Origin: Candidatus Omnitrophota bacterium
GTDB taxonomy: Bacteria > Omnitrophota > Gorgyraeia > 2-01-FULL-45-10
NCBI GenBank assembly: GCA_030695905.1
Contig: JAUYOL010000015.1
Location: 8,518-72,517 of the forward strand
DNA length: 64,000 bases
Direction: 5' to 3'
The position numbers were made by a program, and so were the translations under genes. Positions 32,426-61,389 of this stretch are shown here, piece by piece. How positions within the stretch are numbered: position 1 is the stretch's first letter; each line of letters starts with the position of its first letter. The notes under the pieces are model-generated. The model saw only the letters and a list, made by a program, of their open reading frames with translations. It made no database searches and was not told the origin of the DNA.

Positions 32426-32427
32426 CT

Positions 32428-37677: not shown

Positions 37678-37685
37678 AGGCTTAA

Positions 37686-43155: not shown

Positions 43156-43567
43156 TCTTCATATAGCGGCCGCTTATATTAGTTACATCATATTTTTTGT
43201 GGCTTCGGTAGCCGCGGTATTATATATCATACAGGACAACGCCATAAAGAATAAGCGGACAGCCGTTATCTTCAGCCGGCTACCGAGCCTATCTTTTTTA
43301 GACAAGCTTAACTACAGGAGCATAAGTTTAGCGTTTCCCATACTTACGCTCTCGATTTTCTGCGGATTTCTTTGGTCCGAGAATATCCACGGTATCTGCT
43401 GGTGGGGTTATAATTCCCGCCAGTTCTATTCTCTTGTCCTTTGGCTGATCTATGCCCTTATCCTGCATGTAAGATTATCTGCTAAGGTGCGGGGCCGAAA
43501 AGTGGCTCTGCTGTCTATTTTAGCTTTTTTTATAATAATTCTCAGTTTATTCGGTACCTGCCCGTAG
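43139..43567 (+). CDS. HemX-like truncated CcsA-family heme-handling membrane protein.
   Basis: 4 TM. ..HGICWWGYNSRQFYSLVLWLIYALILHVRL parallels the WWD/His region of the CcsA encoded at 56269 ([29 protein letters not shown]). It lies directly upstream of hemA, as in the Bacillus hemAX arrangement. Confidence 0.5.
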   Translation: MQRYLNLHIAAAYISYIIFFVASVAAVLYIIQDNAIKNKRTAVIFSRLPSLSFLDKLNYRSISLAFPILTLSIFCGFLWSENIHGICWWGYNSRQFYSLVLWLIYALILHVRLSAKVRGRKVALLSILAFFIIILSLFGTCP

Positions 43568-43582
43568 TTCGGAGAAATATAT

Positions 43583-44629: not shown

Positions 44630-45554
44630 ACGTTTTATTATAGGATCGCGATCGAGCAAACTAGCCCTGACGCAGACCAGATACGTCATGGATAAACTGA
44701 AAAAATTTCACCCCTCGCCTAATTTTGAGATAAAGACCATAAAGACGGCGGGGGATAAGATACCGGATGTGGCTTTAAGTAAGATCGCCGACAAGGGGTT
44801 TTTCACTAAAGAGATCGAGGAAGCGTTATTGAGGCGCGAGATCGACCTTGCTGTGCACAGCATGAAAGATTTGCCGACGGAATTGTCGCCACACCTAAAG
44901 ATTGCCGCGGTCACAAAAAGGGAAGATCCGCGCGATGTGCTGGTTTCAAGGGAAGGATTTACTTTAAAGACACTGCCTCAAGGTTCCAGGGTGGGGACTA
45001 GTAGTCTGCGTCGTAGCGCTCAACTGCTATATATAAGAAAAGACCTGAAGATTATGGATCTGCGCGGGAATCTGGATACGCGGATAAATAAATTAGATCG
45101 CGGCATATATGACGCGATAATACTTGCCTATGCCGGCATAAAACGGCTGGGGCTTACGGTAAAGCTCTCGGCTATATCTACGCAAGAGATGTTGCCGCAG
45201 GCAGGCCAGGGCGCATTGGCCATCGAGGCGCATGAGGATAATCACGAAGTCATTAATATGGCCAAGGCGTTAGACGATGCAGATTACCATTTGGCCATCG
45301 ACGCGGAGAGGGCTGTACTCTCAGGCCTGGGAGGCGGTTGCCAGGTGCCGATAGGAGTATATGCCGCAGTAGAAGGTGATATCCTACATGTAACAGCGGG
45401 CGTATTTTCACTTGATGGTAAAATGGCCGTAAGGGATGAAATTTCGGGAAAGAAAATCAATGCTCAGGCCTTAGGCCGGCAATTAGCCGAAAGAGTCCTG
45501 GAGAAAAATGGCGCACAGCAGATTCTTCGGGATTTCAGTAAAGGTATGAGGTGA
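44610..45554 (+). CDS. hemC: Hydroxymethylbilane synthase (porphobilinogen deaminase).
   Basis: IGSRSSKLALTQT..., and a cofactor-binding Cys region GGGCQVPIG. Confidence 0.9.
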   Translation: MSIAENKRFIIGSRSSKLALTQTRYVMDKLKKFHPSPNFEIKTIKTAGDKIPDVALSKIADKGFFTKEIEEALLRREIDLAVHSMKDLPTELSPHLKIAAVTKREDPRDVLVSREGFTLKTLPQGSRVGTSSLRRSAQLLYIRKDLKIMDLRGNLDTRINKLDRGIYDAIILAYAGIKRLGLTVKLSAISTQEMLPQAGQGALAIEAHEDNHEVINMAKALDDADYHLAIDAERAVLSGLGGGCQVPIGVYAAVEGDILHVTAGVFSLDGKMAVRDEISGKKINAQALGRQLAERVLEKNGAQQILRDFSKGMR

Positions 45555-47056
45555 TATCAATGTTGAGGTCAACAGTATTTCTTGTCGGTGCAGGCCCGGG
45601 TGACGAAAAGTTGATAACTGTCAGGGGTCGAGAACTGGTAGGCCGGGCCGATTGTATTATTTATGATAACTTGGTTAATGCTCAAATTTTAAAGAACGCG
45701 AAATTTGGCTGTAAGATTATATATGTTGGCAAGAAAGCGAGCGCGCACACATTATCGCAAGATAATATAAATAAACTTCTGGTAAAAGAGGCAAGGCGGT
45801 ATTGCAATGTAGTTCGCCTTAAAGGCGGAGACCCGTTTATATTCGGAAGGGGTGCCGAAGAGGCGGTATATTTAAGGAAGAAAGGAATAGATTTCCAAAT
45901 TGTTCCGGGAGTCACCAGCGCAATAGCGGTTCCTGCCTATGCAGGCATCCCCCTTACAGAAAGAAGCATGACCTCGACGGTAGGTTTTATCACAGGACAC
46001 GAAGACCCCACTAAGCCGGACTCGGGGGTAGACTGGAACGCATTGACAAAAGCGCTGGGTACGATGGTATTCTTGATGGGCGCGGGCAACCTTGGACTGA
46101 TAGTAAAAAGGTTGATCGCAAGCGGTAAGCCTGTAGATACTCCGGTCGCCGTGATAAGGTGGGGTACTACGGCAAAACAGAAGACGGTGGCCGGTGTTTT
46201 AAGCAACATAGTCAGCCTGTCGCGAAAAAATAAAATATCACCGCCAGCCATAATAGTCGTCGGCAAGACTGTGGAGTTGAGAAAGGAATTGAATTGGTTC
46301 GAGAAGAGGCCTCTTTTTGCAAAAAGGGTGATCGTCACCCGTACGCGAGAGCAGGTCAGCGAACTTTCGTGTAAACTCCGGGATCTGGGGGCTGAAGTTA
46401 TCGAGATACCTACAATCAAGACCGTATCGCTTAAATCCGATACGTTGTTAAGAAAAGCTTTTTCATCTGGGAAATACGACTGGGTATTCTTCACAAGTCA
46501 GAACGGCGTATATGAATTCGACGGATTTTTAAATAGATCCGGCAAAGACTGCCGAATGCTGTGCGAGGCGAAGATATGTGCCATAGGTTCCCAGACTGCG
46601 AAGGCATTACGCGGTATCGGCATAAGGCCCGATTACACACCACCGGAATTTACCGCGGAATCTATAGTGGAACATTTTAAAAAGATGCGTTGTCCGGGCC
46701 GAGCCCTTATTCTGCATGCTAAAAAAGCGCGCGAGGTGCTGCCGGAGGGCCTTAAAAGATCAGGATTTAAGGTAATGGCAATAGATTTGTACGATACGGT
46801 TGTGGCAAAGGAAAGTTCCATCGCCCTGAATCAGGCGTTGGCCGAATATGTAGATATCATCACATTTACCAGTTCGTCAACGGTTGAGAATTTTATTAAA
46901 CTTGCCGGGAAAGATTACAAGCGTAAACTTTCCGGAGTAAAACTTGTTTCAATAGGGCCTGTCACATCAGACACGTTAAAAAAGTTCGGTTTAAAACCAG
47001 GCGCGCAGGCCAAGGTCCATACCATAGACGGGCTTGTAAAGGTATTAGTGGAGTAA
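45551..47056 (+). CDS. Bifunctional uroporphyrinogen-III C-methyltransferase / uroporphyrinogen-III synthase (CobA-HemD fusion).
   Basis: N-terminal VFLVGAGPGDEKLITVRGRELVGRADCIIYD (SUMT), C-terminal HemD fold. 501 aa. Confidence 0.85.
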   Translation: MISMLRSTVFLVGAGPGDEKLITVRGRELVGRADCIIYDNLVNAQILKNAKFGCKIIYVGKKASAHTLSQDNINKLLVKEARRYCNVVRLKGGDPFIFGRGAEEAVYLRKKGIDFQIVPGVTSAIAVPAYAGIPLTERSMTSTVGFITGHEDPTKPDSGVDWNALTKALGTMVFLMGAGNLGLIVKRLIASGKPVDTPVAVIRWGTTAKQKTVAGVLSNIVSLSRKNKISPPAIIVVGKTVELRKELNWFEKRPLFAKRVIVTRTREQVSELSCKLRDLGAEVIEIPTIKTVSLKSDTLLRKAFSSGKYDWVFFTSQNGVYEFDGFLNRSGKDCRMLCEAKICAIGSQTAKALRGIGIRPDYTPPEFTAESIVEHFKKMRCPGRALILHAKKAREVLPEGLKRSGFKVMAIDLYDTVVAKESSIALNQALAEYVDIITFTSSSTVENFIKLAGKDYKRKLSGVKLVSIGPVTSDTLKKFGLKPGAQAKVHTIDGLVKVLVE

Positions 47057-47064
47057 AAACTAAA

Positions 47065-48231
47065 ATGATAAATTGTACGAGATTGCTTTCTGGTAAAAAA
47101 GGTTTTTATGACGAGATCCGTTATGCTAAGGGTAAGCCCGCGGACACTAACCGGCCGATAGTGGTATGGAATACCACCAAAAGCTGTAATTTACAGTGTG
47201 TCCATTGTTATTTTGATGCTCACGCAAAGAAAGACAAAGGCGAACTTACGACTGAACAAGCAAGGACCATGATCGACGATATTGCGGCCTTCGGCGCGCC
47301 CGTATTCTTATTCTCCGGCGGGGAACCTTTTATGCGCGAGGACCTGTTTGACCTCGGCAAGTATGCGTTATCCAAAGGATTGCGCACGGTAATATCCACT
47401 AATGGTACTCTGATCACCAAAGATACCGCTAAAAGAATAAAGGATGCAGGATTTTCATATGTGGGCATCAGTCTGGACGGACTGGAGGCTGTGAATGACA
47501 AGTTCCGTAAAGCGCCGGGAGCTTTTAAGAAAACATTAGAAGGGATAAGGAACTGTCACTCATGCGGGGTGCGCGCGGGATTAAGGTTTACTATTAATAA
47601 GCATAGCTTCCGTGATATGGCCGGCATATTCGACCTGATCGAAAATGAAGGCATCAAACGAGCCTGTTTTTATCATCTGGTATATTCAGGCAGGGGAAGT
47701 GCAATGATAAAAGAAGACCTGACTAAGGAAGGGTCACGGGATGCCCTGGACCTTATCTTTGACAGGACTATAGACTTAAGCCGTAAAAGCGAAGATACGG
47801 AAATCCTTACTGTGGATAATCACGCGGACGGTGTCTATCTGTATCTGCGCCTGAAGAAAGAAGGCAAAAAGCGCGCGGACGAGACACTTGAGCTTCTAAA
47901 AATCAACGGAGGCAATAAATCAGGCATCGGTATCGCGGACATCGACAATCTTGGCTTTGTCCACCCAGATCAGTTTTGGAGGCATTATTCTCTGGGCAAT
48001 GTAAGAGAAAGGAATTTCAGTGATATATGGTCCGATGAAAGTGATGCCTTACTGCATAATTTAAGGAATAGGCTTCATCTATTAAAGGGAAAGTGCGGCC
48101 GCTGTCACTTCCAGGATATCTGTGCCGGAAATTTTAGAGTAAGGGCAGAGGCGTTTTATGGCGATGTGTGGCAGGAGGATCCGGCCTGTTATTTGAGCGA
48201 AGAAGAGATATTGAGTGTAAGAGAGGATTAG
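47065..48231 (+). CDS. Radical SAM/SPASM heme biosynthesis enzyme (AhbC or AhbD, NirJ-like).
   Basis: CNLQCVHCY (CxxxCxxC), GGEP, and a C-terminal SPASM Cys cluster CGRCHFQDICAG. Confidence 0.7.
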   Translation: MINCTRLLSGKKGFYDEIRYAKGKPADTNRPIVVWNTTKSCNLQCVHCYFDAHAKKDKGELTTEQARTMIDDIAAFGAPVFLFSGGEPFMREDLFDLGKYALSKGLRTVISTNGTLITKDTAKRIKDAGFSYVGISLDGLEAVNDKFRKAPGAFKKTLEGIRNCHSCGVRAGLRFTINKHSFRDMAGIFDLIENEGIKRACFYHLVYSGRGSAMIKEDLTKEGSRDALDLIFDRTIDLSRKSEDTEILTVDNHADGVYLYLRLKKEGKKRADETLELLKINGGNKSGIGIADIDNLGFVHPDQFWRHYSLGNVRERNFSDIWSDESDALLHNLRNRLHLLKGKCGRCHFQDICAGNFRVRAEAFYGDVWQEDPACYLSEEEILSVRED

Positions 48232-48237
48232 CTTAGG

Positions 48238-49305
48238 ATGGCCCAAAAGCGACCGAAGGAAACTCCCAAGAGGAGACAGAAAGTAGATCTAAGGTTAGTT
48301 GCGTGGGAATTGACACGCAGCTGCAACTTAGCCTGCAGTCATTGCCGGGCGTCAAGTAAGCATGGGCCGTATCCGGATGAATTGACCACCGAAGAATGTT
48401 TTAAGGTCATCGACGATATTGTTTCATTCAGTAAGCCCATTATCATTCTCACGGGCGGTGAGCCGTTATTAAGAAAAGATATTTTCGAGATCGCCGGATA
48501 CGGGAAAAAGAAGGGGCTTACCATGGTGATGGCGCCTAACGGCACGCTCTTAACCGAAGAGAATGTCAAAAAAATAATTAGCTCGGGTGTAAAAAGGATC
48601 TCGGTCAGCCTGGACGGCCCTGATGCCGGCTCTCATGATAATTTGAGGCAGGTTCCCGGTGCCTTCAATACTGCCTGTGACGGAATAGCAAGAGCAAAAA
48701 TAGCCGGTCTTGAATTTCAGATAAATACTACCGTCACCAAAAGAAATATAAAGCTGCTTCCCCGGATAATCAAATTGGCCAAAGACCTTGGAGCGAAGGC
48801 GCACCACATCTTTCTTCTTGTGCCAACGGGTCGGGCAAAAGAGATGGCCGAAGAAGAGTTGTCGGCATCGGAATATGAGGAAACGCTTAAATTGTTAGCG
48901 AGGGAGAAGAAGGGTTCTTCTTTGGAGATAAAGATAACCTGCGCTCCACACTTCAACCGCGTTTTGCTGCAGGAACACGCGGCCGCCGCGCCCAGCCTGT
49001 CCGGCAGGGGGTGCATGGGAGGGGTAAGTTTTTGTTTTATCTCGCATGTAGGCGACGCGCAGCCGTGCGGTTATCTTGAAATCAAATGCGGCAATATACG
49101 CAAACAAGCCTTTAAAGACATATGGCTTGAGTCCGAAGTATTTAATAATATCAGAGATTTCGGACAATATAAAGGTAAGTGCGGCGTCTGTGAATTTAAA
49201 GCCGTCTGCGGAGGATGCCGCGCCCGCGCTTATGCAAAATACAGTGATTATTTAAGAGAGGAACCTTATTGCACATATGAGCCAAAGTTTCCTGTCAAAA
49301 AATAG
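48238..49305 (+). CDS. Radical SAM/SPASM heme biosynthesis enzyme (AhbD or AhbC, NirJ-like), second copy.
   Basis: CNLACSHCR, GGEPLL, and a C-terminal CGVCEFKAVCGGC. Confidence 0.7.
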   Translation: MAQKRPKETPKRRQKVDLRLVAWELTRSCNLACSHCRASSKHGPYPDELTTEECFKVIDDIVSFSKPIIILTGGEPLLRKDIFEIAGYGKKKGLTMVMAPNGTLLTEENVKKIISSGVKRISVSLDGPDAGSHDNLRQVPGAFNTACDGIARAKIAGLEFQINTTVTKRNIKLLPRIIKLAKDLGAKAHHIFLLVPTGRAKEMAEEELSASEYEETLKLLAREKKGSSLEIKITCAPHFNRVLLQEHAAAAPSLSGRGCMGGVSFCFISHVGDAQPCGYLEIKCGNIRKQAFKDIWLESEVFNNIRDFGQYKGKCGVCEFKAVCGGCRARAYAKYSDYLREEPYCTYEPKFPVKK

Positions 49306-49753
49306 ATTAAGCTTGCTGGACAGGCGCATCCTGAACCGACTTCAGGAAGATATTCCGTTTGTAGAAAAGCCTTGGGCATTGATAGCGCAAGAGCTCGGGA
49401 TCAAGGAAGATCATCTTCTGGGGAGGGTCATTTTTTTTAAAGAGAAGGGCATAATCCGCAGGATAAGCGCGGTCTTCTCTCCGCGCAAAATTAATTTTAC
49501 CTCTACCCTGGCAGCGGTAAAAGTTACTCCGGGCAATATCGGGAAGATAGCAAAGAAGATAAATTCCTACCATGAGGTTACCCATAATTACAGACGAACC
49601 GGTGAATACGATCTTTGGTTTACACTGGTGGCTAAGGATAAGAAGAGGATCACACACATCCTGCGCCGGCTTAAGATGGATAAAAATATCGAAACAATAT
49701 CAGAGTTTCCAATGGTAAAATTATTTAAAATAGATGTAAAGTTCTACACCTGA
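49277..49753 (+). CDS. Siroheme decarboxylase subunit (AhbA/AhbB, NirD/L/G/H family Lrp/AsnC-like).
   Basis: About 155 aa with an N-terminal wHTH (LDRRILNRLQEDIPFVEKPW..) characteristic of NirDL-type proteins. Confidence 0.65.
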   Translation: MSQSFLSKNRLSLLDRRILNRLQEDIPFVEKPWALIAQELGIKEDHLLGRVIFFKEKGIIRRISAVFSPRKINFTSTLAAVKVTPGNIGKIAKKINSYHEVTHNYRRTGEYDLWFTLVAKDKKRITHILRRLKMDKNIETISEFPMVKLFKIDVKFYT

Positions 49754-49764
49754 AAGTATATCCG

Positions 49765-50232
49765 ATGCCCTCGAAACTCGACAAAGTAATAATAGGTTTA
49801 ATTTCACGGGACATGCCTTTAACAAAAAAGCCATTTAGGGATTTGGCCGCCTCACTTGGTATTGATGAGGGTCTTTTGCTCGAAAGGATACGATCGTTTA
49901 AAAAAAACGGGCTCATGCGCAAGTTCGCAGCGATCCTTAACCACAAAAAAATAGGTTTTCGGTATAATGCGATGGTGGTCTGGAATGTCCCGCAAAAATT
50001 TGTTGATAAGGCGGGCAGGGCAATGGCTTCATTTGACGAAGTAAGCCATTGTTATCAGAGGGAAAAAAGAAATGGCTGGAATTATAATTTGTATTCCATG
50101 ATACATGGCAGGACCAAGGAAGAAGTTTTCAGCGCAGTTAAAAAAATATCTGTCAGATTAGGGGGAAATTTTGAGCATAAAGCCTTGTTTTCATTTAAAG
50201 AAGAAAAGAAGACGGGAGCCAAATATTTATAA
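49765..50232 (+). CDS. Siroheme decarboxylase subunit (AhbB/AhbA), paralog of the preceding gene.
   Basis: Same architecture (LISRDMPLTKKPFRDLAASLGIDE...). It forms a tandem pair with the gene at 49277. Confidence 0.65.
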   Translation: MPSKLDKVIIGLISRDMPLTKKPFRDLAASLGIDEGLLLERIRSFKKNGLMRKFAAILNHKKIGFRYNAMVVWNVPQKFVDKAGRAMASFDEVSHCYQREKRNGWNYNLYSMIHGRTKEEVFSAVKKISVRLGGNFEHKALFSFKEEKKTGAKYL

Positions 50233-50239
50233 ATATTGC

Positions 50240-50267
50240 TTGACGTTTTTTAGAAATATGCTACAAT
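50240..50267 (+). promoter_or_regulatory. Sigma70-like promoter: TTGACG, a 16-bp spacer, then TACAAT, upstream of the octaheme cytochrome gene.
   Basis: Same hexamers as the promoter at 12465. The ATG at 50284 would give a leader of about 10 nt. Confidence 0.4.
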
Positions 50268-50283
50268 TCTTTACAAAATAATT

Positions 50284-51072
50284 ATGAAAAATTGGAATAG
50301 ATATATATTTATCTTTTGCACAGCCGTGGTATTTGGAACAGCCGCCGTAAGTTATTGCGCCGCCCGATCAGAAGGTGATGCTGTCGAGCAGCCAGGCAAG
50401 ATTGCCGGCGCGACATATGTGGGCATGGAAACATGCGCCATGTGTCATGAAAAGATAGCGAAAAATTTTAAGAGATCCGACCATGCGCGTATAGTCGTCG
50501 CTTCCAAAGCTAAGGAAGGGCAAGCGTGCGAGACTTGTCATGGGCCGGGCAGCCTGCATGCCGATGCCCAGACAAAGGCCGAGAAGCACGCCACCATAAT
50601 TAATCCTAAGAAAACCCCCGAAACTTGTTATCAGTGTCATATGGATAAAAAAGCCTCTTTCAACCTGCAATATCACCATCCTGTGCCCGAAGGTAAAATG
50701 AGCTGTGCTGATTGCCACGATCCGCACGGAGAAGATGCCATCAGGCCGAACACAAATCGGTCTCTTTCACCCAAGAATGCCGTATGCGCCAAGTGTCATA
50801 AGGACCAGACGATGGTTTTTGCTTACGAACATGATGCGTTGAGAGAAGGCTGTACGACATGCCATGATGTGCATGGCTCGATAAATGATAAGATGCTTGT
50901 AGAAAGAGATGCTACCCTCTGCCTAAAGTGCCATTTCCAGGCGAATTTTCCTTCAACAGGTAATATTGGCAATCGAGGGCATGCGACTTCTGTAAATCGC
51001 GGTCCGTGCTGGAGTGGCGGTTGCCATACGGCAGTGCACGGTTCAAATTATAATGACCATCTCAGAATATAG
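50284..51072 (+). CDS. Periplasmic multiheme c-type cytochrome (7 canonical CxxCH plus one CxxxxCH), MtrA/OmaB-like.
   Basis: A signal peptide. CAMCH, CETCH, CYQCH, CADCH, CAKCH, CTTCH, CLKCH, plus CWSGGCH. 262 aa. Confidence 0.8.
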   Translation: MKNWNRYIFIFCTAVVFGTAAVSYCAARSEGDAVEQPGKIAGATYVGMETCAMCHEKIAKNFKRSDHARIVVASKAKEGQACETCHGPGSLHADAQTKAEKHATIINPKKTPETCYQCHMDKKASFNLQYHHPVPEGKMSCADCHDPHGEDAIRPNTNRSLSPKNAVCAKCHKDQTMVFAYEHDALREGCTTCHDVHGSINDKMLVERDATLCLKCHFQANFPSTGNIGNRGHATSVNRGPCWSGGCHTAVHGSNYNDHLRI

Positions 51073-51077
51073 TTAAT

Positions 51078-53144
51078 ATGAAGAAGAAAATAATATCGAT
51101 AGTCTGTATAAATTTTACCTTACCTGTATTACTATGCTCTTCATTGGTTTATGCGGGCGTATCAGAAGCGGGCGGTAATGGCGTAATCTACCCTTCGGTA
51201 TTATCGGTAGTTTCAGTCGGGGACAATGAAAAATTCCAGGAAGATCATTGGATGACGAACAATGTTCAGGGGGGCGTGTCCGATTACAACTATATCAACG
51301 AAGATCAACACGGCGGTTCTATTGTCGCCGACGGAAGGGTGGTCGCGGGCAATAACGACTATCTCTTTAATTTTGACTTAAAAAAAGAGGGGATAGGCAG
51401 CCTTATCTTCGATTTCAAACAGTTCAGGAAATATTATGACGGCACCGGAGGGTTTTTCTCTAACTTTGCGCCCACAGCTGCGTCTCGCTCAACTTATCTC
51501 GAGGCAGACAGAGCGCTTTTTCTGGATATAGGCAATTTTAAGATCGAAGGCACTCTTTCAAAAGAAGAGAACGCAAAATGTATCTTTTTATACGAGCGGG
51601 AGTATAGGCAGGGCACAAAGTCTTTGACAAGCTGGGGCAGTGTGGTCGAAGGCGGGACAACTCGAAATATATTGCCTACTTTCCTCGAAACCGATGAGAT
51701 CGTGGATAAATTTGAGATGAAGATCGAGCATACCACACCAAGCGGTATAGAGGTATCTGCGGAACAAGGGTATGAGAAGGTAAGGGTTGCCAACCAGAAG
51801 GTCAATAACCGGACCTATAATCTGGGTACCGGAGTATTTTCAAGCATCAGGTATAAATACGAAAATCTGAACGCCGATATTTATACAACGATATTGCGCA
51901 TATCTAAGGAGTTGAATGAAAGGGTCTTTTTGTCTATCGCCTTCCTGGAGGACTATAATGTCGGCAAGACAGAAGAAGTTATAACCGATACCTTGGCCCC
52001 CGGACTCGCCTCCACTGCCGAGAACCATCCTTTAAACCCGCAAAAGGTGCGTCAAAATCAGGTTAGCGTCCTTCCTAAGGCGACTATTTTACTATTAGAA
52101 AATTTGACGATGGATGTGGGGCTGAAGTGGGAGTGGATAAAGACGAAGGCTGTTGGAACTTATAATAAGAACAGGGCAACCGCCACCGTAACAGATGAGT
52201 TTGTGGATCTTGAGGTTAAAAAGGATGATAACCATATTGGGGAAACCTTTGGTCTTAAGTACGATGGGATGAGAGACGTAATATTTTACGCGGATGGTGA
52301 ACTCGAACAGCAGCTACGAAACGAAGATGAATCGCAGAGATCCTTCGGTCCTCAACCGGTTGGCACTGATAATTTTTCAAGAGACCAGAATATCCTTAGC
52401 CTTGATTACGATGTCACGTCAGGTTTTAAATGGTACCCTATATCGAAGGTCAATGTTACAGCGGAGTTTAAATATAAACATGGCACGCGGGACTACACAT
52501 TTCTTAGCACCACAAAGGCGGGCGACGTTGTAGGCGGCTACAGGGGTTTTCTTGACGAAATTGAGTACACCTCATACAAGCCTCTCGTTATGTTTAACTG
52601 TAAGCCTTTTAGATGGCTCGCCTGCAATTTTCGTTATGCTTTAGATACAACGGTCTACGGAGTACGGACACCGGCTGCCGAGGCTACCGAAAAAGCTCAA
52701 TACCTGGCGCATATCTATTCCGCGGGAGCCACGCTTACGCCGAAAGATTGCCTTTACATGACATTGTTTTACCAGTACAAACAGGCGTCAACCGAGACAC
52801 AGGCAAATGGTAACGGCGGTTCGGTGGAAAGAATGCCTACATATAACGCGAGTTTCAGGACGTTGAGCGCCTCATGCGGATATTCACCGGTTAAGGATAT
52901 TACACTAAAAGGCGACTACTCGTTCTCCAATGCCGATAACTTTAATGACTTCGTGAATATAGGGTTGCCGCTCGGGCTGGATAACTTTTCACAGGACGCC
53001 TCTATCGGAATTGAAAAAAAGCTCCGCGGCGACTGCTCCGTAGAATTCAAGTATGACTTCACGCAATATCACGAAACCTCTAACGGCGGTATCGATGATT
53101 ACGAAGCGCATCTTTTTTATACCGGATTAAAGATGAAATTTTAG
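51078..53144 (+). CDS. Large outer-membrane beta-barrel protein (688 aa), a candidate porin partner of the upstream cytochrome (MtrB/PioB/OmbB-like).
   Basis: A signal peptide. Abundant Y/G/T/N-rich alternating strands. It ends ..YTGLKMKF (C-terminal Phe). It starts 6 nt after the cytochrome gene. Confidence 0.55.
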   Translation: MKKKIISIVCINFTLPVLLCSSLVYAGVSEAGGNGVIYPSVLSVVSVGDNEKFQEDHWMTNNVQGGVSDYNYINEDQHGGSIVADGRVVAGNNDYLFNFDLKKEGIGSLIFDFKQFRKYYDGTGGFFSNFAPTAASRSTYLEADRALFLDIGNFKIEGTLSKEENAKCIFLYEREYRQGTKSLTSWGSVVEGGTTRNILPTFLETDEIVDKFEMKIEHTTPSGIEVSAEQGYEKVRVANQKVNNRTYNLGTGVFSSIRYKYENLNADIYTTILRISKELNERVFLSIAFLEDYNVGKTEEVITDTLAPGLASTAENHPLNPQKVRQNQVSVLPKATILLLENLTMDVGLKWEWIKTKAVGTYNKNRATATVTDEFVDLEVKKDDNHIGETFGLKYDGMRDVIFYADGELEQQLRNEDESQRSFGPQPVGTDNFSRDQNILSLDYDVTSGFKWYPISKVNVTAEFKYKHGTRDYTFLSTTKAGDVVGGYRGFLDEIEYTSYKPLVMFNCKPFRWLACNFRYALDTTVYGVRTPAAEATEKAQYLAHIYSAGATLTPKDCLYMTLFYQYKQASTETQANGNGGSVERMPTYNASFRTLSASCGYSPVKDITLKGDYSFSNADNFNDFVNIGLPLGLDNFSQDASIGIEKKLRGDCSVEFKYDFTQYHETSNGGIDDYEAHLFYTGLKMKF

Positions 53145-54454
53145 TGAAATCCCGCAATAATGGAAAAAAAAAGTTCAAAAATTCCGCAAACCTTTTTAAA
53201 CTAGCCAAGAAGTTTATTCCAGGAGGAGTAAATAGTCCCGTACGCGCTTTTAAGGCCGTTGGTACAACGCCTCTCTTCATTTCCAGGGGCAAGGGCGCGT
53301 ATGTCTATGATGTGGATGGTAATAAATTCATCGATTATGTCATGTCATGGGGTCCTCTTGTTTTAGGCCATGCCGATGAGAGAGTGGTCGGGCCGGTAGC
53401 CAAGGCTTTAAAGCGAGGCACCAGTTTTGGCGCTCCGACCAAACAAGAAATAGAGTTAGCGCGGTTAGTGACCGACATCTACCCCTCTATTAAAAAAGTC
53501 CGGCTCACTTCTTCCGGGACCGAGGCTGCGATGAGCGCTATCAGGCTTGCTCGCGGATACACCGGCCGTGAGAAGATATTAAAATTCGAAGGCTGTTATC
53601 ACGGCCACTCAGATAGCCTTTTAGTTAAAGCGGGTAGTGGCTTGGCCACTTTTGGGGTTCCTTCCTCTGCAGGCGTGAACAAAAATGTCGCCAGGGACAC
53701 GATTACAATCCCATTCAATAGTATAGAAAAATTCGAAAAAGCTGTCGCGAAGGAAAAAGATAATATCGCCTGCGTTATTGTTGAGCCTATACCGGCAAAT
53801 ATGGGCGTTGTGTTGCCCGGGCCGGGATTTCTTAAAAAGTTAAGACAGGTAACGAAAGAAAGCGGTATCGTCCTGATCTTCGATGAAGTAATAACGGGTT
53901 TCCGCGTGGCCCTGGGTGGGGCGCAGGAGTTTTTAGGGGTATCTCCGGATCTAACCATACTGGGTAAGATTTTGGGAGGCGGCTTTCCCATAGGCGCTTT
54001 TGGCGGTAAGCCCGAGATAATGGATCTTCTATCTCCCGATGGTCCGGTATATCAGGCCGGCACTCTGTCAGGGAATCCCGTGGCTGTCGAGGCAGGTCTT
54101 GCCACCATACGTATTTTAATGAGCAATAAGGTGTATGATAAACTGCGGAATTTGGGGGATGCGCTTGAGTCGGGCTTTCGGCGGATCATCGCACGGCAGG
54201 CGCAGGGTGTAACATTGCAGAGATGTGGTTCTTTGTTCACTCTTTTCTTTACAGAAAAAAAGGAGATATTAAATTATCAGGATGCGTTGGCGTGCGATAC
54301 AGATGCATTCGCGTTATTTTTTCGCGGGATGCTTGAGCGGGGTATATATCTTGCCCCTTCGCAATTCGAGGCAAATTTTATTTCCGCTGCGCACACCCTG
54401 CGCGAGATAGAGAAGACTTTAAAAGCGGCAGAAGCCGCGTTTTTAAAAGAATAA
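53144..54454 (+). CDS. hemL: Glutamate-1-semialdehyde 2,1-aminomutase.
   Basis: IPGGVNSPVRAF; PLP lysine region ..ILGKILGGGFPIGAFGG.. Confidence 0.9.
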   Translation: MKSRNNGKKKFKNSANLFKLAKKFIPGGVNSPVRAFKAVGTTPLFISRGKGAYVYDVDGNKFIDYVMSWGPLVLGHADERVVGPVAKALKRGTSFGAPTKQEIELARLVTDIYPSIKKVRLTSSGTEAAMSAIRLARGYTGREKILKFEGCYHGHSDSLLVKAGSGLATFGVPSSAGVNKNVARDTITIPFNSIEKFEKAVAKEKDNIACVIVEPIPANMGVVLPGPGFLKKLRQVTKESGIVLIFDEVITGFRVALGGAQEFLGVSPDLTILGKILGGGFPIGAFGGKPEIMDLLSPDGPVYQAGTLSGNPVAVEAGLATIRILMSNKVYDKLRNLGDALESGFRRIIARQAQGVTLQRCGSLFTLFFTEKKEILNYQDALACDTDAFALFFRGMLERGIYLAPSQFEANFISAAHTLREIEKTLKAAEAAFLKE

Positions 54455-54577: not shown

Positions 54578-55114
54578 GTGCGTAAATTGTTTTTTTGGAT
54601 AGTAGTGATGTCGGTTTTTTGTGCGATTGGTTATGTCTGGGCAGAAGGGCCTCATAAATATGTGGGAGTGAAGAAGTGTGCGATGTGTCACAAATCCGAA
54701 TCAAAGGGGAACCAGTATGGCCAATGGCTTGCTTCTGCGCACGCCAAGGCCTATGAAAGGCTCGCAAGCCCCGAGGCGCTGGAATCGGCTAAGAAGAAAG
54801 GTATCGCGGGTAACCCGCAGGAAGCCCCCCAATGTGTAAAATGCCACGTTACCGGTTATGGCGAAGACACCAGCCTGTTTGCCGAAAGTTTTGTAAAGAC
54901 GGATGGTGTCCAGTGCGAGACTTGCCATGGAGCGGGAAGCGACTACTTGAGCTTAAGCGTGATGAAGGACAGGGCAAAGGCCATAGCGGCAGGCCTTATT
55001 ATTCCGACTAAGGAGCTATGTGTCAAATGTCATAACCCGGAGAGCCCGAATTATAAAGAATTTAATTACGACGAATATGTTAAAAGGATAGCTCATCCGA
55101 GGCCGAAAGAATAA
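54578..55114 (+). CDS. Periplasmic tetraheme c-type cytochrome.
   Basis: GTG start with RBS aaggggagg. A signal peptide. CAMCH, CVKCH, CETCH, CVKCH. Confidence 0.8.
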   Translation: MRKLFFWIVVMSVFCAIGYVWAEGPHKYVGVKKCAMCHKSESKGNQYGQWLASAHAKAYERLASPEALESAKKKGIAGNPQEAPQCVKCHVTGYGEDTSLFAESFVKTDGVQCETCHGAGSDYLSLSVMKDRAKAIAAGLIIPTKELCVKCHNPESPNYKEFNYDEYVKRIAHPRPKE

Positions 55115-55125
55115 AGAATAAAAAT

Positions 55126-56265
55126 ATGTCTTTAAAGCAGACCAGGGTCTGGAAGTTTTTTTCTTCGATAAAGCTGGCCATATGGTTACTCGCTATAATC
55201 GCCGCGCTTTCTTTGCTGGGCACATTTATCCCGCAAAATCAGGAAGCCTCCTTTTACATCGATAAATATGGACATTCTGGGTATAGGGCCTTGCTGGAGA
55301 CCGGCCTAACCGACGTCTATTCTTCTTTCTGGTTTGTACTTCTCCTGGTGCTTTTCTCAATAAACCTGATCGTGTGTCTTATAAACAGGATCTCCCTTAA
55401 GATGCGCATGCTGGGGTCTATACTATCCCACGCCAGTATCCTGATAATATTGATAGGTGCTCTTATAGGCATATTCTTCGGCCAAAAAGGGCTTGTAAAA
55501 ATAAGCGACGGTGAAGAGGTGAGTTCTTTTACCACCCAGGATAAAAAGCGTGTTGACCTGGGGTTTTCGGTAAGGCTTGATAAATTTATCTATAGCGAGC
55601 ACATCGACCCGAAAGAAAAATTATTAGTTTGTCCCGTTAAAAATACCGTCTCTAATGGGGCTGATTCCCCGCAAAGTGATGCATGCTGCAGTAAAGATAG
55701 CCCTCAAAGTTCCGGCAAGAACCAGGGTCTTATAGCGGAGATCCCTACTGAAATAGGCGTAGAGCATGATATTGCGGACACTGGGTATAAGATAAAGATT
55801 CTGCGTTACATCCCTGATTTTGCTATAGATACTGTCACGAAAGTAGCAGCGAGCCGATCGGCTAAGGCAAATAATCCCGCGATACAGGTTCAACTTAATG
55901 ATAAGGCCGGTCAAGTCTCCACATTCTGGGTATTTGCCCGCTTTCCCGACATGCATCAGAAGATGGACCAAAGGTTTAAATTCACATATCATTGGATCGG
56001 CCGTCGGCCGAAAGATTTTATCAGCAAAGTTACCATATTGAAGGCCGGCAAGGAGATTATAACTAAAGATATACGCGTAAATGAACCGCTTCGTTTCGGC
56101 GGATATACTTTTTTTCAGTTCAGTTACGATGCCGAAGATCTTAAGTGGTCGGTCCTTCAGGTAGTTAAAGATCCCGGCGTGGGTGTGGTTTACGCCGGAT
56201 TTATTATGCTCATAGCGGGTCTCATTATCATATTCTATGTCAATCCGCTAACCAGGGGGAGATAA
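55126..56265 (+). CDS. resB: Cytochrome c biogenesis protein ResB/CcsB (system II).
   Basis: The N-terminus ..VWKFFSSIKLAIWLLAIIAALSLLGTFIPQ.. is the classic ResB. A large periplasmic domain and a C-terminal TM. Confidence 0.8.
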   Translation: MSLKQTRVWKFFSSIKLAIWLLAIIAALSLLGTFIPQNQEASFYIDKYGHSGYRALLETGLTDVYSSFWFVLLLVLFSINLIVCLINRISLKMRMLGSILSHASILIILIGALIGIFFGQKGLVKISDGEEVSSFTTQDKKRVDLGFSVRLDKFIYSEHIDPKEKLLVCPVKNTVSNGADSPQSDACCSKDSPQSSGKNQGLIAEIPTEIGVEHDIADTGYKIKILRYIPDFAIDTVTKVAASRSAKANNPAIQVQLNDKAGQVSTFWVFARFPDMHQKMDQRFKFTYHWIGRRPKDFISKVTILKAGKEIITKDIRVNEPLRFGGYTFFQFSYDAEDLKWSVLQVVKDPGVGVVYAGFIMLIAGLIIIFYVNPLTRGR

Positions 56266-56268
56266 GAG

Positions 56269-57042
56269 ATGTCGGCCATGTATATTAATTTCAGTTTCGC
56301 GGTATTTTTTTTAGCCATGATTTTATATGCGGCAGGGCTCTTGTTCAAAAATAAGGCGCTCCCGTTGTTAGCAAAATCTCTCATGGCCTGCGGTATCCTC
56401 AGCCTTTCACTATATATAGGTATCCGCTGGCAGGTTGCCGGCAGGCCGCCATTCAGTAATATGTTTGAATCGCTGGTCGTGCTCAGCTGGGCTATCGCCA
56501 TTACTTCTGTTTTTATCGATATAAAATACAGGATTAAGAATATTGCGGCATTGACGGCTTTGATGAGCTTGCTGGCGATAGGATATGCTTCGTTATTAGA
56601 TAAAGAAATAGTCCCCCTCCTGCCTGCTTTGAAAAGCAACTGGCTTTCCATCCATGTCTTGACCTGCTTCATCGGATATGCTGCTTTAACCGTAGCTTTT
56701 GTTTCAAGCGCCGTGCTTTTGTGCAGGAAAAAAGAGGATATAAGTCTGGATATTGTAAGTTACAAGATGATAACATTCGGATTTTTATTCCTTACACTGG
56801 GCATCATCAGCGGCGCCATATGGGCGAATTCTGCGTGGGGCACTTACTGGAGCTGGGATCCTAAAGAAACATGGTCTTTGATTACCTGGTTTGTCTACGC
56901 CATCTATTTACATATCCGTCTGACGAAAGGATGGAAGGGAAAGCCAGCGGCCTGGCTATCGGTGGCGGGGTTCCTGGCAATGCTCTTTACCTATTTCGGC
57001 GTAAATTATCTATTGCCGGGTTTACATAGTTACTCGGGTTAA
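56269..57042 (+). CDS. ccsA: Cytochrome c assembly protein CcsA/ResC (system II heme lyase).
   Basis: WWD domain WGTYWSWDPKETWSL, and conserved His residues. Confidence 0.85.
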   Translation: MSAMYINFSFAVFFLAMILYAAGLLFKNKALPLLAKSLMACGILSLSLYIGIRWQVAGRPPFSNMFESLVVLSWAIAITSVFIDIKYRIKNIAALTALMSLLAIGYASLLDKEIVPLLPALKSNWLSIHVLTCFIGYAALTVAFVSSAVLLCRKKEDISLDIVSYKMITFGFLFLTLGIISGAIWANSAWGTYWSWDPKETWSLITWFVYAIYLHIRLTKGWKGKPAAWLSVAGFLAMLFTYFGVNYLLPGLHSYSG

Positions 57043-57045
57043 TAC

Positions 57046-57486
57046 ATGGTACAGAAAAAAATTACCAGACGTGAATTTATAAATTACATTTTAGGCGGAT
57101 CCCTTTTGGGCCTGGCGGCAAGCGCCGCGTACTCGATATTCCGTTACATAACACCCCCCGAAGGCACAGAGACCGCAGTTTCGAGCGCAGTAGCGGGCCG
57201 AAAAGGAGAATTGGCTCCCAATTCCGGCAAAATATTTAAATTCGGGGATAAGCCCGGTATATTGATAAATACTTTAGGCGGTGAATTATTAGCCTTTAAT
57301 GCCGTTTGCACTCATCTAAACTGCACCGTCCAGTATGATCCGCAGGCGGCTTGTATCTGGTGCGCGTGCCATAACGGGCGTTTCGACCTGAACGGCAAGG
57401 TGATCTCCGGCCCACCGCCCCGTCCTCTGGAAAAATACGATGTTAATATAAGGGGGGATGATATTGTCGTTTCAAAAAATATATAA
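57046..57486 (+). CDS. Rieske [2Fe-2S] subunit of a cytochrome bc-type complex.
   Basis: Tat signal TRREFI. Box I CTHLNC and box II CACHNGRF. Confidence 0.85.
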   Translation: MVQKKITRREFINYILGGSLLGLAASAAYSIFRYITPPEGTETAVSSAVAGRKGELAPNSGKIFKFGDKPGILINTLGGELLAFNAVCTHLNCTVQYDPQAACIWCACHNGRFDLNGKVISGPPPRPLEKYDVNIRGDDIVVSKNI

Positions 57487-58540
57487 TTGGTTTGATGAGA
57501 GATACCAGATCTCCGGCGTCAGGGATTTTCTCGCGAAAAAGACCGTGCCCGTACATAAGCATTTCGTATGGTATTATTTCGGCGGCATAACGCTGTTTCT
57601 ATTTCTGGTTCAGGTTGTGACAGGAGTGCTCCTGCTTTTTTACTACAAGCCAACCGCCTCCGAGGCGTTTGAGTCTGTAAAATTCATAATGACCAAAGTT
57701 GAATTTGGATGGCTTATACGTTCCATCCATTCCTGGAGCGCTAATCTGATGGTTTTTTCGGCGTTTGTGCATCTCTTTTCTACATTTTTTATGAAATCAT
57801 ACAGGCCGCCGCGTGAGGTGACATGGGTCACGGGCGCATTCCTGTTTTTTATTGCAATGGGACTGGGATTTACAGGGTATTTGCTGCCATGGAACGAGCT
57901 TTCATTTTTTGCCACCAAGGTCGGCACCCAGATAGCCGGTTCGGTACCGGTAGTGGGATCATACCTTCGGACCGTACTTCGCGGTGGAGAAGAGATATCG
58001 GACGCCACTATAACAAGATTTTTTGCATTGCATGTCATGGTGCTTCCTATTGCTATTGTAGCGATGTTGGGACTGCACCTGGCAATGGTACAGGTTCAGG
58101 GGATGAGCGAACCGCTTTCGGTAGCTAAAAGTCCCGAGAAGAAGAGCATGAAGTTCTTTCCTAATTTTTTTTTGAGAGACATAATCGTTTGGCTATTAAT
58201 ATTTGCCGGGCTTCTTGCTTTAAGTGTTATGTTCCCATGGGAGTTGGGCAAGAAAGCAGATCCTTTTGCACCTACCCCGATCGGCATAAAACCTGAATGG
58301 TATTTTGTATGGATGTTCCAGACGTTGAAGATAATCCCGTCCAAGATACTATTATTTGACGGTGAAGTGCTCGGTATTTTAGCGTTTGGCGCGGCCGGAC
58401 TCGCATTGGTTATACTCCCCTTTATGGATATCTGGGCCAGACGTGAAAAGCGCAACCCTTTATTATCGATCTTGGGCGTTTGCGTTATATTATATATGCT
58501 AGTAATGACTTATCTGGCGTACTTCGGTCCGCAAAAGTGA
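57458..58540 (+). CDS. Cytochrome b subunit (fused b6/subunit-IV type) of a bc complex.
   Basis: ..WYYFGGITLFLFLVQVVTGVLL.., heme-ligand His residues in helices B and D, and ..PEWYF.. 360 aa. Confidence 0.85.
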   Translation: MILSFQKIYNWFDERYQISGVRDFLAKKTVPVHKHFVWYYFGGITLFLFLVQVVTGVLLLFYYKPTASEAFESVKFIMTKVEFGWLIRSIHSWSANLMVFSAFVHLFSTFFMKSYRPPREVTWVTGAFLFFIAMGLGFTGYLLPWNELSFFATKVGTQIAGSVPVVGSYLRTVLRGGEEISDATITRFFALHVMVLPIAIVAMLGLHLAMVQVQGMSEPLSVAKSPEKKSMKFFPNFFLRDIIVWLLIFAGLLALSVMFPWELGKKADPFAPTPIGIKPEWYFVWMFQTLKIIPSKILLFDGEVLGILAFGAAGLALVILPFMDIWARREKRNPLLSILGVCVILYMLVMTYLAYFGPQK

Positions 58541-59796: not shown

Positions 59797-59800
59797 GGTA

Positions 59801-61384: not shown

Positions 61385-61389
61385 CAAGT

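What the first reader, a model, noticed from the sequence alone, without database searches (positions are those of the whole stretch)
50240..53144. Porin-cytochrome-like module (octaheme periplasmic cytochrome plus 688-aa outer-membrane beta-barrel) embedded inside the heme-biosynthesis cluster
A 262-aa secreted cytochrome with 7 CxxCH plus one CxxxxCH is followed 6 nt later by a 688-aa signal-peptide protein. That protein has beta-barrel strand periodicity and a C-terminal Phe, the OMP insertion signature. The arrangement (small periplasmic multiheme cytochrome then large barrel, co-transcribed from a TTGACG/TACAAT promoter) mirrors MtrAB/PioAB/MtoAB and Geobacter OmaB-OmbB porin-cytochrome conduits for trans-outer-membrane electron transfer. 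It sits between ahbAB and hemL, so heme supply and this conduit may be co-regulated. Sequence relatedness to known conduits is not obvious by eye, so this may be a distinct family.
Basis: partly seen in the sequence, partly recalled or inferred. Interest (0 to 1): 0.75.

Follow-up and report, generated by a model that had tools for sequence, protein, structure and literature searches.

The report
MtrAB-like outer-membrane electron conduit
Two adjacent genes in an uncultured Omnitrophota bacterium encode an eight-heme relative of the Shewanella cytochrome MtrA and a 26-strand outer-membrane barrel shaped like MtrB. Together they most likely form a wire that carries respiratory electrons across the outer membrane: a divergent version of a known device in a phylum where I found no description of it.

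Summary
ORF 50284-51072 encodes a 262-aa secreted cytochrome with 7 CxxCH sites plus one CWSGGCH. Five nt later, ORF 51078-53144 encodes a 688-aa signal-peptide protein ending in Phe.

The cytochrome is a clear MtrA homologue: E=7e-32 to chain A of the solved Mtr complex. It has eight hemes rather than ten and scores below the curated DmsE and GSU2203 family cut-offs.

The pair is adjacent in all 19 related loci that include upstream DNA, down to 24% barrel identity, and the two proteins co-diverge (r=0.88). In Omnitrophota the pair sits within a conserved cluster for heme synthesis, cytochrome c maturation, Rieske/cytochrome b and a CbcL-like protein.

A large Verrucomicrobiota sister group fuses a monoheme cytochrome domain to the same barrel. 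This is probably the "novel porin-MHC" noted computationally in 2017.

Verdict: a sequence-divergent MtrAB/MtoAB-type porin-cytochrome conduit with two components. Direction and substrate are unknown, and no function has been shown experimentally. Moderately interesting.

The parts
50240..50267 (+). Sigma-70-like -35/-10 motif (TTGACG, 16 nt, TG-TACAAT) in the 51-nt gap between ahbB and the cytochrome gene
   Evidence: Consensus match only; such matches are frequent in this region, and read-through from the upstream ahb genes on the same strand is equally possible.
50284..51072 (+). Octaheme c-type cytochrome, 262 aa, homologous to MtrA/DmsE/OmcK (7 CxxCH plus a C-terminal CX4CH); proposed periplasm-to-surface heme wire
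   Evidence: motifs; TIGR03508 158 bits, NF041028 161 bits, both below cut-off; 6r2q_A E=7e-32; all eight sites and 7-9 further His conserved in 46 homologues.
51078..53144 (+). 688-aa outer-membrane beta-barrel, 26 strands in the model, MtrB-like fold, C-terminal Phe; proposed sheath for the cytochrome
53144..54454 (+). hemL (glutamate-1-semialdehyde aminomutase); its start overlaps the barrel stop codon, so it is probably co-transcribed
   Evidence: TIGR00713 617.6 bits, above cut-off.
42511..50232 (+). Upstream siroheme-dependent heme pathway: sirC, a CcsB-like fragment, hemA, hemC, cobA-hemD, ahbC-like, ahbD-like, ahbA, ahbB
54578..55114 (+). Secreted tetraheme c554-like cytochrome, 178 aa; candidate periplasmic shuttle feeding the conduit (inferred)
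   Evidence: conserved next to the barrel in L001.
55126..57042 (+). ResB and CcsB: system II cytochrome c maturation
57046..58540 (+). Rieske protein and cytochrome b (b6/ExtP-like)
58480..63267 (+). Three membrane-associated multiheme cytochromes: a 9-heme protein, an NrfH-anchored protein with about 15 hemes, and a CbcL-like fusion of 11 hemes to a b-type cytochrome. Candidate quinol oxidases that feed the periplasm.
   Evidence: the CbcL-like gene co-occurs with the pair in L002, L008, L010, L011, L013, L015, L016 and L019.

Best explanation
The two genes encode a two-component porin-cytochrome conduit of the MtrAB/MtoAB/PioAB type. The octaheme cytochrome is exported to the periplasm and matured by the adjacent ResB/CcsB system, using heme from the surrounding ahb pathway. 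It is then threaded into the lumen of the 26-strand barrel. Its chain of bis-His hemes would span the outer membrane, with the C-terminal CX4CH heme at the cell surface, by analogy with heme 10 of MtrA. Electrons from the quinone pool would reach it through the neighbouring Rieske/cytochrome b and CbcL-like or NrfH-like multiheme proteins and a small periplasmic tetraheme. They would then pass to an extracellular acceptor such as Fe(III), humic quinones or a partner cell, or flow the other way. Shown here: homology of the cytochrome to MtrA, the MtrB-like predicted fold of the barrel, strict gene adjacency and co-divergence, and the conserved respiratory and heme context. Inferred: physical insertion of the cytochrome, its orientation, the direction of electron flow and the substrate.
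For: 1. Eight conserved heme sites, plus 7 invariant and 2 nearly invariant extra His residues as candidate distal ligands.
2. Cytochrome against MtrA of the solved Mtr complex (6r2q_A): E=7e-32. DmsE family E=2.6e-46; GSU2203/OmcK family E=3.5e-47.
4. A cytochrome of 246-382 aa carrying seven or eight CxxCH sites, plus the CX4CH site in 17 of the 19, lies directly upstream of the barrel in 19 of 19 related loci with upstream DNA, down to 24% barrel identity. Where start codons are unambiguous the gaps are mostly 20 nt or less.
5. Pairwise identities of cytochromes and barrels correlate: r=0.88, Mantel p about 2e-4.
6. A sister clade fuses a PSCyt1 monoheme cytochrome c domain to the N-terminus of the same barrel, which ties the barrel family itself to redox function.
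7. The pair is conserved in Omnitrophota alongside CbcL-like, ResB/CcsB, Rieske/cytochrome b and hem genes. Complex I, ETF-QO and quinone-biosynthesis genes are also in the window.
8. Forty-two of 47 family members end in Phe.
Confidence: 0.78

Rival explanations
1. The architecture is the same, but it works inward. It would be an MtoAB/PioAB-like Fe(II)-oxidising or electron-uptake conduit (from minerals, a cathode or a host or partner cell), feeding electrons to the Rieske/cytochrome b complex. This is a variant of the main explanation, not an alternative structure.
For: The module has two components and no adjacent extracellular cytochrome, as in MtoAB/PioAB (background in PMC6344600). A Rieske/cytochrome b complex lies directly downstream. 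CbcL homologues (MtoC/MtrH) also occur in Fe(II) oxidisers (PMC6295460).
Against: The window contains no carbon-fixation genes, terminal oxidase or nitrate reductase to accept the electrons. ETF-QO and complex I nearby suggest that organic electron donors fill the quinone pool. Heme potentials are unknown.
Confidence: 0.25
2. The barrel is a substrate channel. A soluble oxidant such as selenite, tellurite, chelated metal or a sulfur species would enter through it and be reduced in the periplasm by the octaheme cytochrome, with no trans-membrane heme wire.
For: The neighbouring cytochrome b scores 224 bits against ExtP, from the Geobacter selenite/tellurite-reduction operon, though below the 290-bit cut-off. 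Weak hits link some family members to GSU2204-family (seleno)proteins. Eight hemes may be too few to span the membrane.
Against: A 26-strand barrel is far larger than a solute channel needs. The best structural match is MtrB, which sheathes MtrA. The cytochrome is homologous along its length to MtrA, an inserted wire. Strict pairwise co-divergence fits a physical complex.
Confidence: 0.1
3. The barrel is a heme or iron import receptor that sits in the heme cluster for supply reasons, and the cytochrome is an unrelated neighbour.
For: It is located inside a heme-biosynthesis cluster. After MtrB, the next-best structural hits are TonB-dependent siderophore and heme receptors.
Against: No Plug or TonB-dependent-receptor domain was detected, and the model has 26 rather than 22 strands with no plug. 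Alignments to the receptors cover only about 400 residues at TM 0.51 or less. The Verrucomicrobiota loci L012 and L014 keep the pair with none of the window's heme or respiratory genes nearby. The organism makes its own heme.
Confidence: 0.03

Closest known systems
MtrA-MtrB of Shewanella (MtrCAB complex, PDB 6R2Q) and the two-component relatives MtoAB and PioAB
   Same: A periplasmic multiheme cytochrome gene lies directly upstream of a large barrel gene. The cytochrome is homologous to MtrA (E=7e-32). The barrel model has 26 strands, and MtrB is its best structural match. As in MtoAB/PioAB, no extracellular cytochrome gene is adjacent.
   Different: It has eight hemes, not ten; the alignment to MtrA indicates that two hemes from the middle of the chain are missing. 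The last site is CX4CH rather than CxxCH. It scores below the DmsE family cut-off (158 against 192 bits). The barrel gives no hit to the MtrB/PioB sequence models and is about 10-13% identical in structural alignment. The host is Omnitrophota rather than Proteobacteria.
Verrucomicrobia 'novel porin-MHC' clusters (He et al. 2017, PMC5615132) and the Verrucomicrobiota EET3/EET4 clusters in preprint 10.64898/2026.05.27.727921
   Same: These are described as a porin with at least 20 transmembrane strands next to a periplasmic cytochrome with eight conserved heme sites, with no detectable homology to the Shewanella or Geobacter systems. Verrucomicrobiota members of the present barrel family (L012, L014, P0280 of Pedosphaera parvula, Limisphaerales) have exactly such an 8-heme neighbour.
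   Different: Identity with the published genes is inferred; I did not compare sequences directly. The Verrucomicrobiota barrels carry an extra N-terminal PSCyt1 monoheme domain that the window protein lacks. The two Verrucomicrobiota loci checked (L012, L014) lack the heme, Ccs and Rieske/cytochrome b context. Both papers are computational or transcriptomic only.
Geobacter sulfurreducens GSU2203 (OmcK) and GSU2204
   Same: The best NCBIfam hit of the cytochrome is the GSU2203 family (E=3.5e-47). The adjacent GSU2204 family is listed as an MtrB/PioB-family barrel carrying a CXXCH motif (PMC13188914), which echoes the cytochrome-barrel fusions in the sister clade. Two of 47 barrel homologues hit the GSU2204 model weakly (best E=1.2e-4).
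   Different: The cytochrome scores 161 bits against a 325-bit cut-off and has eight hemes rather than ten. The window barrel itself does not hit the GSU2204 model. No conduit function for GSU2203/2204 was found in the papers searched, only up-regulation of both genes with iron oxides (PMC4070692).
Geobacter Pcc complexes (OmaB/OmbB/OmcB; PMC4245776)
   Same: An eight-heme periplasmic cytochrome paired with a porin-like barrel. Two-gene versions without an outer cytochrome exist in Anaeromyxobacter and Kuenenia.
   Different: No OmcB-like outer-membrane lipoprotein cytochrome is adjacent. The gene order here is cytochrome then barrel, and the cytochrome's clear affinity is to MtrA/DmsE. Homology to OmaB or OmbB was not tested.

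Membership tests
DmsE/MtrA family decaheme cytochromes (TIGR03508) | Whole-protein score above the curated cut-off (192.2 bits) | tested here: not met
   158.2 bits, E=2.6e-46: homologous, but below the family threshold.
DmsE/MtrA family decaheme cytochromes (TIGR03508) | Ten CxxCH heme-binding sites | tested here: not met
   Seven CxxCH plus one CX4CH, eight in all, conserved in 46 homologues.
DmsE/MtrA family decaheme cytochromes (TIGR03508) | Detectable homology to structurally characterised MtrA | tested here: met
   6r2q_A E=7.3e-32. Query 46-149 aligns to MtrA 62-168, and query 108-256 to MtrA 176-325.
DmsE/MtrA family decaheme cytochromes (TIGR03508) | Gene adjacent to and co-oriented with a large outer-membrane barrel gene | tested here: met
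   5-nt gap in the window; 19 of 19 related loci.
MtrB/PioB outer-membrane barrel family (TIGR03509, PF11854) | Sequence match to the family model | tested here: not met
   No Pfam or NCBIfam hit at E<=0.1 for the window protein. No MtrB/PioB family appeared among the hits when all 47 members were scanned at E<=1. The family profile found nothing in PDB sequences at E<=10.
MtrB/PioB outer-membrane barrel family (TIGR03509, PF11854) | 26-strand barrel fold matching MtrB | tested here: met
MtrB/PioB outer-membrane barrel family (TIGR03509, PF11854) | Sheathes the partner cytochrome within its lumen | not testable with these tools
   No multimer or heme-aware prediction was available, and model coordinates could not be measured.
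Geobacter Pcc (OmaB-OmbB-OmcB) | Outer-membrane lipoprotein multiheme cytochrome encoded in the same cluster | tested here: not met
   The flanking genes are ahbB and hemL. Of the other multiheme proteins in the window, Pfam and NCBIfam found a NapC/NrfH-type membrane anchor in one and a b-type cytochrome domain in another, and the small tetraheme has a signal-like N-terminus. The localisation of the 9-heme protein was not assessed. No formal lipoprotein predictor was run.
Geobacter Pcc (OmaB-OmbB-OmcB) | Sequence homology to OmaB and OmbB | not tested
   No OmaB or OmbB model or sequence was available in the libraries used.
GSU2203/GSU2204 families (NF041028, NF041027) | Scores above the curated cut-offs (325 and 350 bits) | tested here: not met
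   Cytochrome 161.2 bits. The window barrel gave no hit; only 2 of 47 homologues hit weakly, best E=1.2e-4.
Verrucomicrobia porin-MHC (He et al. 2017) | Large porin gene next to a periplasmic cytochrome with eight conserved heme sites | tested here: met
   Verrucomicrobiota loci L012 and L014 belong to the same barrel family.
Verrucomicrobia porin-MHC (He et al. 2017) | Direct sequence homology to the published Trout Bog or Opitutus genes | not tested
TonB-dependent receptors | N-terminal plug domain and 22-strand barrel | tested here: not met
   No Plug or TonB_dep_Rec hit. The model has 26 strands and no plug. Structural alignments are partial.

The most novel reading that the evidence does not exclude
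This would be a distinct lineage of MtrAB-type conduits found mainly in Omnitrophota and the PVC phyla. Its invariant surface-facing CX4CH heme would itself be the terminal electron-exchange site, so no extracellular cytochrome is needed. In Omnitrophota, a phylum suggested in the literature to take part in direct interspecies electron transfer (PMC7382037), it would mediate direct electron exchange with partner or host cells rather than with minerals.
Probability: 0.12. Interest if true: 0.75.

Novelty: new variant of a known kind. Interest (0 to 1): 0.45.

Why it matters
Omnitrophota are widespread and uncultured, and their energy metabolism is poorly understood. A complete, co-clustered chain would give a concrete and testable basis for extracellular electron transfer in this phylum: complex I and ETF-QO, quinone, Rieske/cytochrome b and CbcL-like cytochromes, a periplasmic tetraheme, and an octaheme-barrel conduit, together with their own heme synthesis and cytochrome c maturation genes.

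The barrel family has about 1,000 clusters at 50% identity and no Pfam or NCBIfam model. HMM-based surveys that rely on the known MtrB/PioB models would therefore probably miss these barrels, so EET capacity in Omnitrophota and Verrucomicrobiota may be undercounted. The eight-heme MtrA variant with a conserved CX4CH end heme is a natural experiment on the minimal length and exit chemistry of a trans-membrane heme wire.

Tried and rejected
- A profile of the barrel family against all PDB sequences found no hit at E<=10, so only a fold comparison could link it to MtrB.
- The AF2 model of the cytochrome, built from a 46-sequence alignment, had pLDDT 51.6. As is common for heme-free multiheme models, it was too poor to use, so I made no fold search with it.
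- The afdb50 fold library was unavailable.
- My first guess was an anammox planctomycete, because of the ahb pathway and the many cytochromes. This was rejected: an identical protein is deposited as Candidatus Omnitrophota.
- Literature searches for Omnitrophota with porin-cytochrome, MtrA/MtrB or porin found only generic mentions: multiheme cytochromes and possible DIET, CbcL and ImcH homologues, and FeGenie iron cycling.
- The TonB-dependent receptor and LptD readings were rejected on strand number, lack of a plug and much poorer structural alignment.
- The idea that the position between ahbB and hemL is a fixed feature was rejected. It recurs in L004, but in L001 hemL precedes the pair and regulator genes intervene. 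What is conserved is looser linkage to the hem, ccs and cbc genes.
- Hits labelled Chloroflexi or Limnocylindria (L018, P0272) are few. I treat them as possible mis-binning, not as evidence of wider distribution.
Full report
**1. What is in the sequence**

ORF 50284-51072 encodes a 262-aa protein with a hydrophobic, signal-like N-terminus. It has CxxCH sites at residues 51, 82, 115, 141, 168, 190 and 213, and a CWSGGCH (CX4CH) site at 242.

Five nucleotides after its stop codon, ORF 51078-53144 encodes a 688-aa protein. This also has a signal-like N-terminus, contains no heme motif, and ends in ...LKMKF.

A TTGACG / 16 nt / TG-TACAAT motif lies at 50240-50267, in the 51-nt gap after ahbB. It is only a consensus match: 26 such sites occur in 6.5 kb against 10.4 expected. 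The upstream genes are on the same strand, so read-through is equally possible.

The barrel's stop codon overlaps the start of hemL, so hemL is probably co-transcribed with the pair.

An identical barrel protein is deposited from a Candidatus Omnitrophota MAG.

**2. The cytochrome**

It is a clear homologue of the periplasmic component of known conduits:
- It matches chain A of the solved Mtr complex (6R2Q, MtrA) at E=7.3e-32. The C-terminal six heme sites align to MtrA 176-325 and the N-terminal four to MtrA 62-168. Residues 108-149 are therefore used twice, which fits an MtrA-like chain lacking two central hemes.
- It matches the DmsE decaheme family (158 bits, E=2.6e-46) and the GSU2203/OmcK family (161 bits, E=3.5e-47). 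Both scores are below the curated cut-offs of 192 and 325 bits.

In an alignment of 46 homologues (51-88% identical), all eight heme sites are conserved. Seven further His residues are invariant and two more nearly so, enough for bis-His ligation of eight hemes.

The C-terminal motif C-[WFY]-[SA]-[GAS]-[GSE]-C-H recurs in 15 of 16 pairs examined, across phyla. If the protein is oriented like MtrA, this atypical heme is the one at the cell surface. That is inference.

The family has at least 3,569 relatives at E<=1e-5. Where a source names them, NCBI calls them "cytochrome c3 family protein".

**3. The barrel**

It has no Pfam or NCBIfam family. The only hit is DUF6252 at E=0.029, below threshold. 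A profile of 47 homologues finds nothing among PDB sequences at E<=10.

An AlphaFold2 model built on that alignment is confident (mean pLDDT 86.6, pTM 0.77). It consists almost entirely of long antiparallel strands. Counting the DSSP elements gives 26 membrane-length strands and no plug domain.

Two independent structure comparisons put MtrB first:

| Method | Best hit | Score for MtrB | Next-best hits |
|---|---|---|---|
| Foldseek | 6r2q_B (MtrB) | E=3.6e-14; TM 0.62/0.66 | TM at most 0.51 |

By predicted structure, then, this is an MtrB-sized barrel and not a conventional porin, autotransporter or TonB-dependent receptor. By sequence it lies outside the MtrB/PioB family models.

There is one weak sequence bridge. 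Two of the 47 homologues hit the NCBIfam GSU2204 model (best E=1.2e-4), and two fused sister-clade proteins do so marginally. [quoted passage not shown] Its neighbour GSU2203/OmcK is the family closest to the cytochrome here.

**4. Conservation of the pair**

Twenty related loci were examined: L001-L003 and L004-L020, the latter from one genome per GTDB species.
- All 19 loci that include DNA upstream of the barrel have a cytochrome of 246-382 aa directly upstream. It carries seven or eight CxxCH sites, plus the CX4CH site in 17 of the 19.
- This holds down to 24% barrel identity. It also holds in MAGs labelled Omnitrophota, Verrucomicrobia, Pedosphaera, Planctomycetia and Lentisphaeria.
- Where start codons are unambiguous, the gaps between the genes are mostly 20 nt or less.
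- Pairwise identities of cytochromes and barrels across 16 pairs correlate strongly (Pearson r=0.88, Mantel p about 2e-4). The cytochromes are much more conserved: mean 52% identity against 29% for the barrels.

**5. Size and shape of the barrel family**

An exhaustive profile search finds 1,035 cluster representatives at E<=1e-3 and 476 at E<=1e-30.

A large subgroup of about 800 aa carries an N-terminal PSCyt1 ("Planctomycete cytochrome C") monoheme domain fused to the barrel. It includes the cultured Pedosphaera parvula as well as Limisphaerales and Verrucomicrobiales MAGs.

A covalently attached c-type cytochrome domain on the same barrel is independent evidence that the barrel family serves electron transfer.

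**6. Genomic context**

- **Upstream:** the complete siroheme-dependent heme pathway. This comprises sirC, hemA, hemC, cobA-hemD, an AhbC/NirJ1-like radical SAM enzyme, an AhbD-like radical SAM enzyme, and ahbA and ahbB.
- **Downstream:** hemL, a secreted tetraheme c554-like cytochrome, ResB and CcsB, and a Rieske protein with a b6/ExtP-like cytochrome b. These are followed by a 9-heme cytochrome, an NrfH-anchored cytochrome with about 15 hemes, and a CbcL-like fusion of 11 hemes to a b-type cytochrome.
- **Elsewhere in the window:** a complex I operon (nuoB, C, D, H, I, J, L, M, N; 29520-38640, minus strand), ETF-quinone oxidoreductase, and UbiA and polyprenyl synthase genes.

The exact order ahbCDAB-cytochrome-barrel-hemL recurs in L004. 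In L001, hemL precedes the pair and a two-component system and a MerR gene intervene.

In distant Omnitrophota loci (L002, L008, L011, L013, L015, L019) the pair is still flanked by CbcL-like, ResB/CcsB, Rieske/cytochrome b and hemA/C/D/L genes. The Verrucomicrobiota loci L012 and L014 retain only the pair.

The link between heme supply, cytochrome maturation, quinol oxidation and this module is therefore a conserved Omnitrophota trait, not an accident of this genome.

The Shi laboratory had already listed three CbcL/MtoC/MtrH and three ImcH homologues in Candidatus Omnitrophica (PMC6295460).

**7. Most likely mechanism**

The pair most likely forms a two-component porin-cytochrome conduit of the MtrAB/MtoAB/PioAB type.
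- The octaheme protein is exported, matured by ResB/CcsB and inserted into the 26-strand barrel, forming a heme wire across the outer membrane.
- It would be fed from the quinone pool through the Rieske/cytochrome b and CbcL-like or NrfH-like cytochromes and the small periplasmic tetraheme.

Shown here: homology, predicted fold, adjacency, co-divergence and context. Inferred: insertion of the cytochrome, its orientation, and the direction and partner of electron flow.

Outward transfer to Fe(III), humics or a partner cell is somewhat favoured by the ETF-QO, complex I and CbcL-like context. The absence of an extracellular cytochrome resembles the Fe(II)-oxidising MtoAB/PioAB systems, so inward flow remains a live option.

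The substrate-channel and heme-uptake-receptor readings are much less likely; the rival explanations give the reasons.

**8. Comparison with what is known, and novelty**

This works like MtrAB/MtoAB. It is not a member by the curated criteria: it has eight hemes rather than ten, it scores below the cut-offs, and the barrel is invisible to the MtrB/PioB models.

The closest published description is the "novel porin-multiheme cytochrome c" cluster of freshwater Verrucomicrobia: a porin with at least 20 transmembrane strands and a periplasmic 8-heme cytochrome (He et al. 2017, PMC5615132; also PMC6344600). A 2026 preprint describes transcribed porin-MHC clusters in Verrucomicrobiota, including Limisphaerales (10.64898/2026.05.27.727921).

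Verrucomicrobiota members of the present family fit that description. The identity is nevertheless inferred, because I did not compare sequences directly.

I found no paper describing this module in Omnitrophota. What I found were general remarks about multiheme cytochromes and possible DIET (PMC7382037) and about iron cycling (PMC8478452).

I therefore rate it a new variant of a known kind. It is useful because the barrel family is large and has no model in Pfam or NCBIfam, and because the module gives Omnitrophota a testable EET pathway. It is not a new principle.

**9. Limits**

- No experiment exists for any family member.
- No co-fold could be run.
- The cytochrome-only model failed (pLDDT 51.6).
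- The afdb50 library was unavailable.
- Signal peptides and protein localisation were judged by reading the sequences, not with a dedicated predictor.

Noticed in passing
P0134, P0145, P0152, P0280 and about 1,000 relatives; loci L012 and L014: A large Verrucomicrobiota subgroup of this barrel family, about 800 aa long, carries an N-terminal PSCyt1 monoheme cytochrome c domain (two in P0152). This is a cytochrome-barrel fusion reminiscent of Cyc2, yet it is still paired with the octaheme gene. JGI names some of these proteins 'mono/diheme cytochrome c family protein'.
   Followed up: partly
window 58480-63267: Downstream of the Rieske and cytochrome b genes lie three large multiheme cytochromes: 9 hemes, about 15 hemes with an NrfH-type anchor, and 11 hemes fused to a formate-dehydrogenase-gamma-like b-type cytochrome (CbcL-like). 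The arrangement resembles Geobacter Cbc and anammox-style bc complexes and is conserved in L001.
   Followed up: partly
L015 691-3558 and L016 16576-19377: Proteins of about 950 aa with 18-19 CxxCH sites, ending MLFTYK or MVFAYK, lie in the same clusters as the pair in two distant Omnitrophota loci. They may be extracellular or outer-membrane partners of the conduit in those lineages. None is present in the window.
   Followed up: no
window 43139-43567: A 142-aa ORF matches only the C-terminal part of CcsB (model positions 92-240 of 252). It sits between sirC and hemA, apart from the full ResB/CcsB pair at 55126-57042. It could be a truncated paralogue or a split gene.
   Followed up: no
window 211-2312 and 29520-38640 (minus strand): There are two sets of complex I-type genes. 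One is a fused NuoC-NuoD-like protein plus NuoB at the window's start. The other is a separate nuoB-C-D-H-I-J-L-M-N operon on the minus strand. No NuoEFG genes were seen among the ORFs scanned, which may mean the electron donor is not NADH.
   Followed up: partly
window 4291-10434: A 2,047-aa protein whose C-terminal part carries the glycoside hydrolase 94 supersandwich and catalytic domains, as in cyclic beta-1,2-glucan synthase or cellobionic-acid phosphorylase. Its roughly 1,300-aa N-terminal part has no Pfam match.
   Followed up: no
window 14512-16167 and 19481-21139: Two paralogous GH3-family (acyl-acid amido synthetase-like) genes lie in a cluster with an epimerase, hydrolases, an enolase-superfamily enzyme, MFS transporters and a radical SAM enzyme. 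This may be a small-molecule biosynthesis cluster.
   Followed up: no
window 57458-58540: The cytochrome b scores 224 bits against NCBIfam ExtP, the b-type cytochrome of the Geobacter selenite/tellurite-reduction operon (cut-off 290). The tetraheme at 54578-55114 and the octaheme weakly hit the 'UshA-like (seleno)protein' model. These are faint links to the Geobacter ext and selenoprotein gene neighbourhoods.
   Followed up: no
L002 7234-8001: In the most divergent Omnitrophota pair (26% barrel identity), the cytochrome shows seven CxxCH sites but no CX4CH site where it is expected. The last heme site may use a different spacing or may be lost.
   Followed up: no
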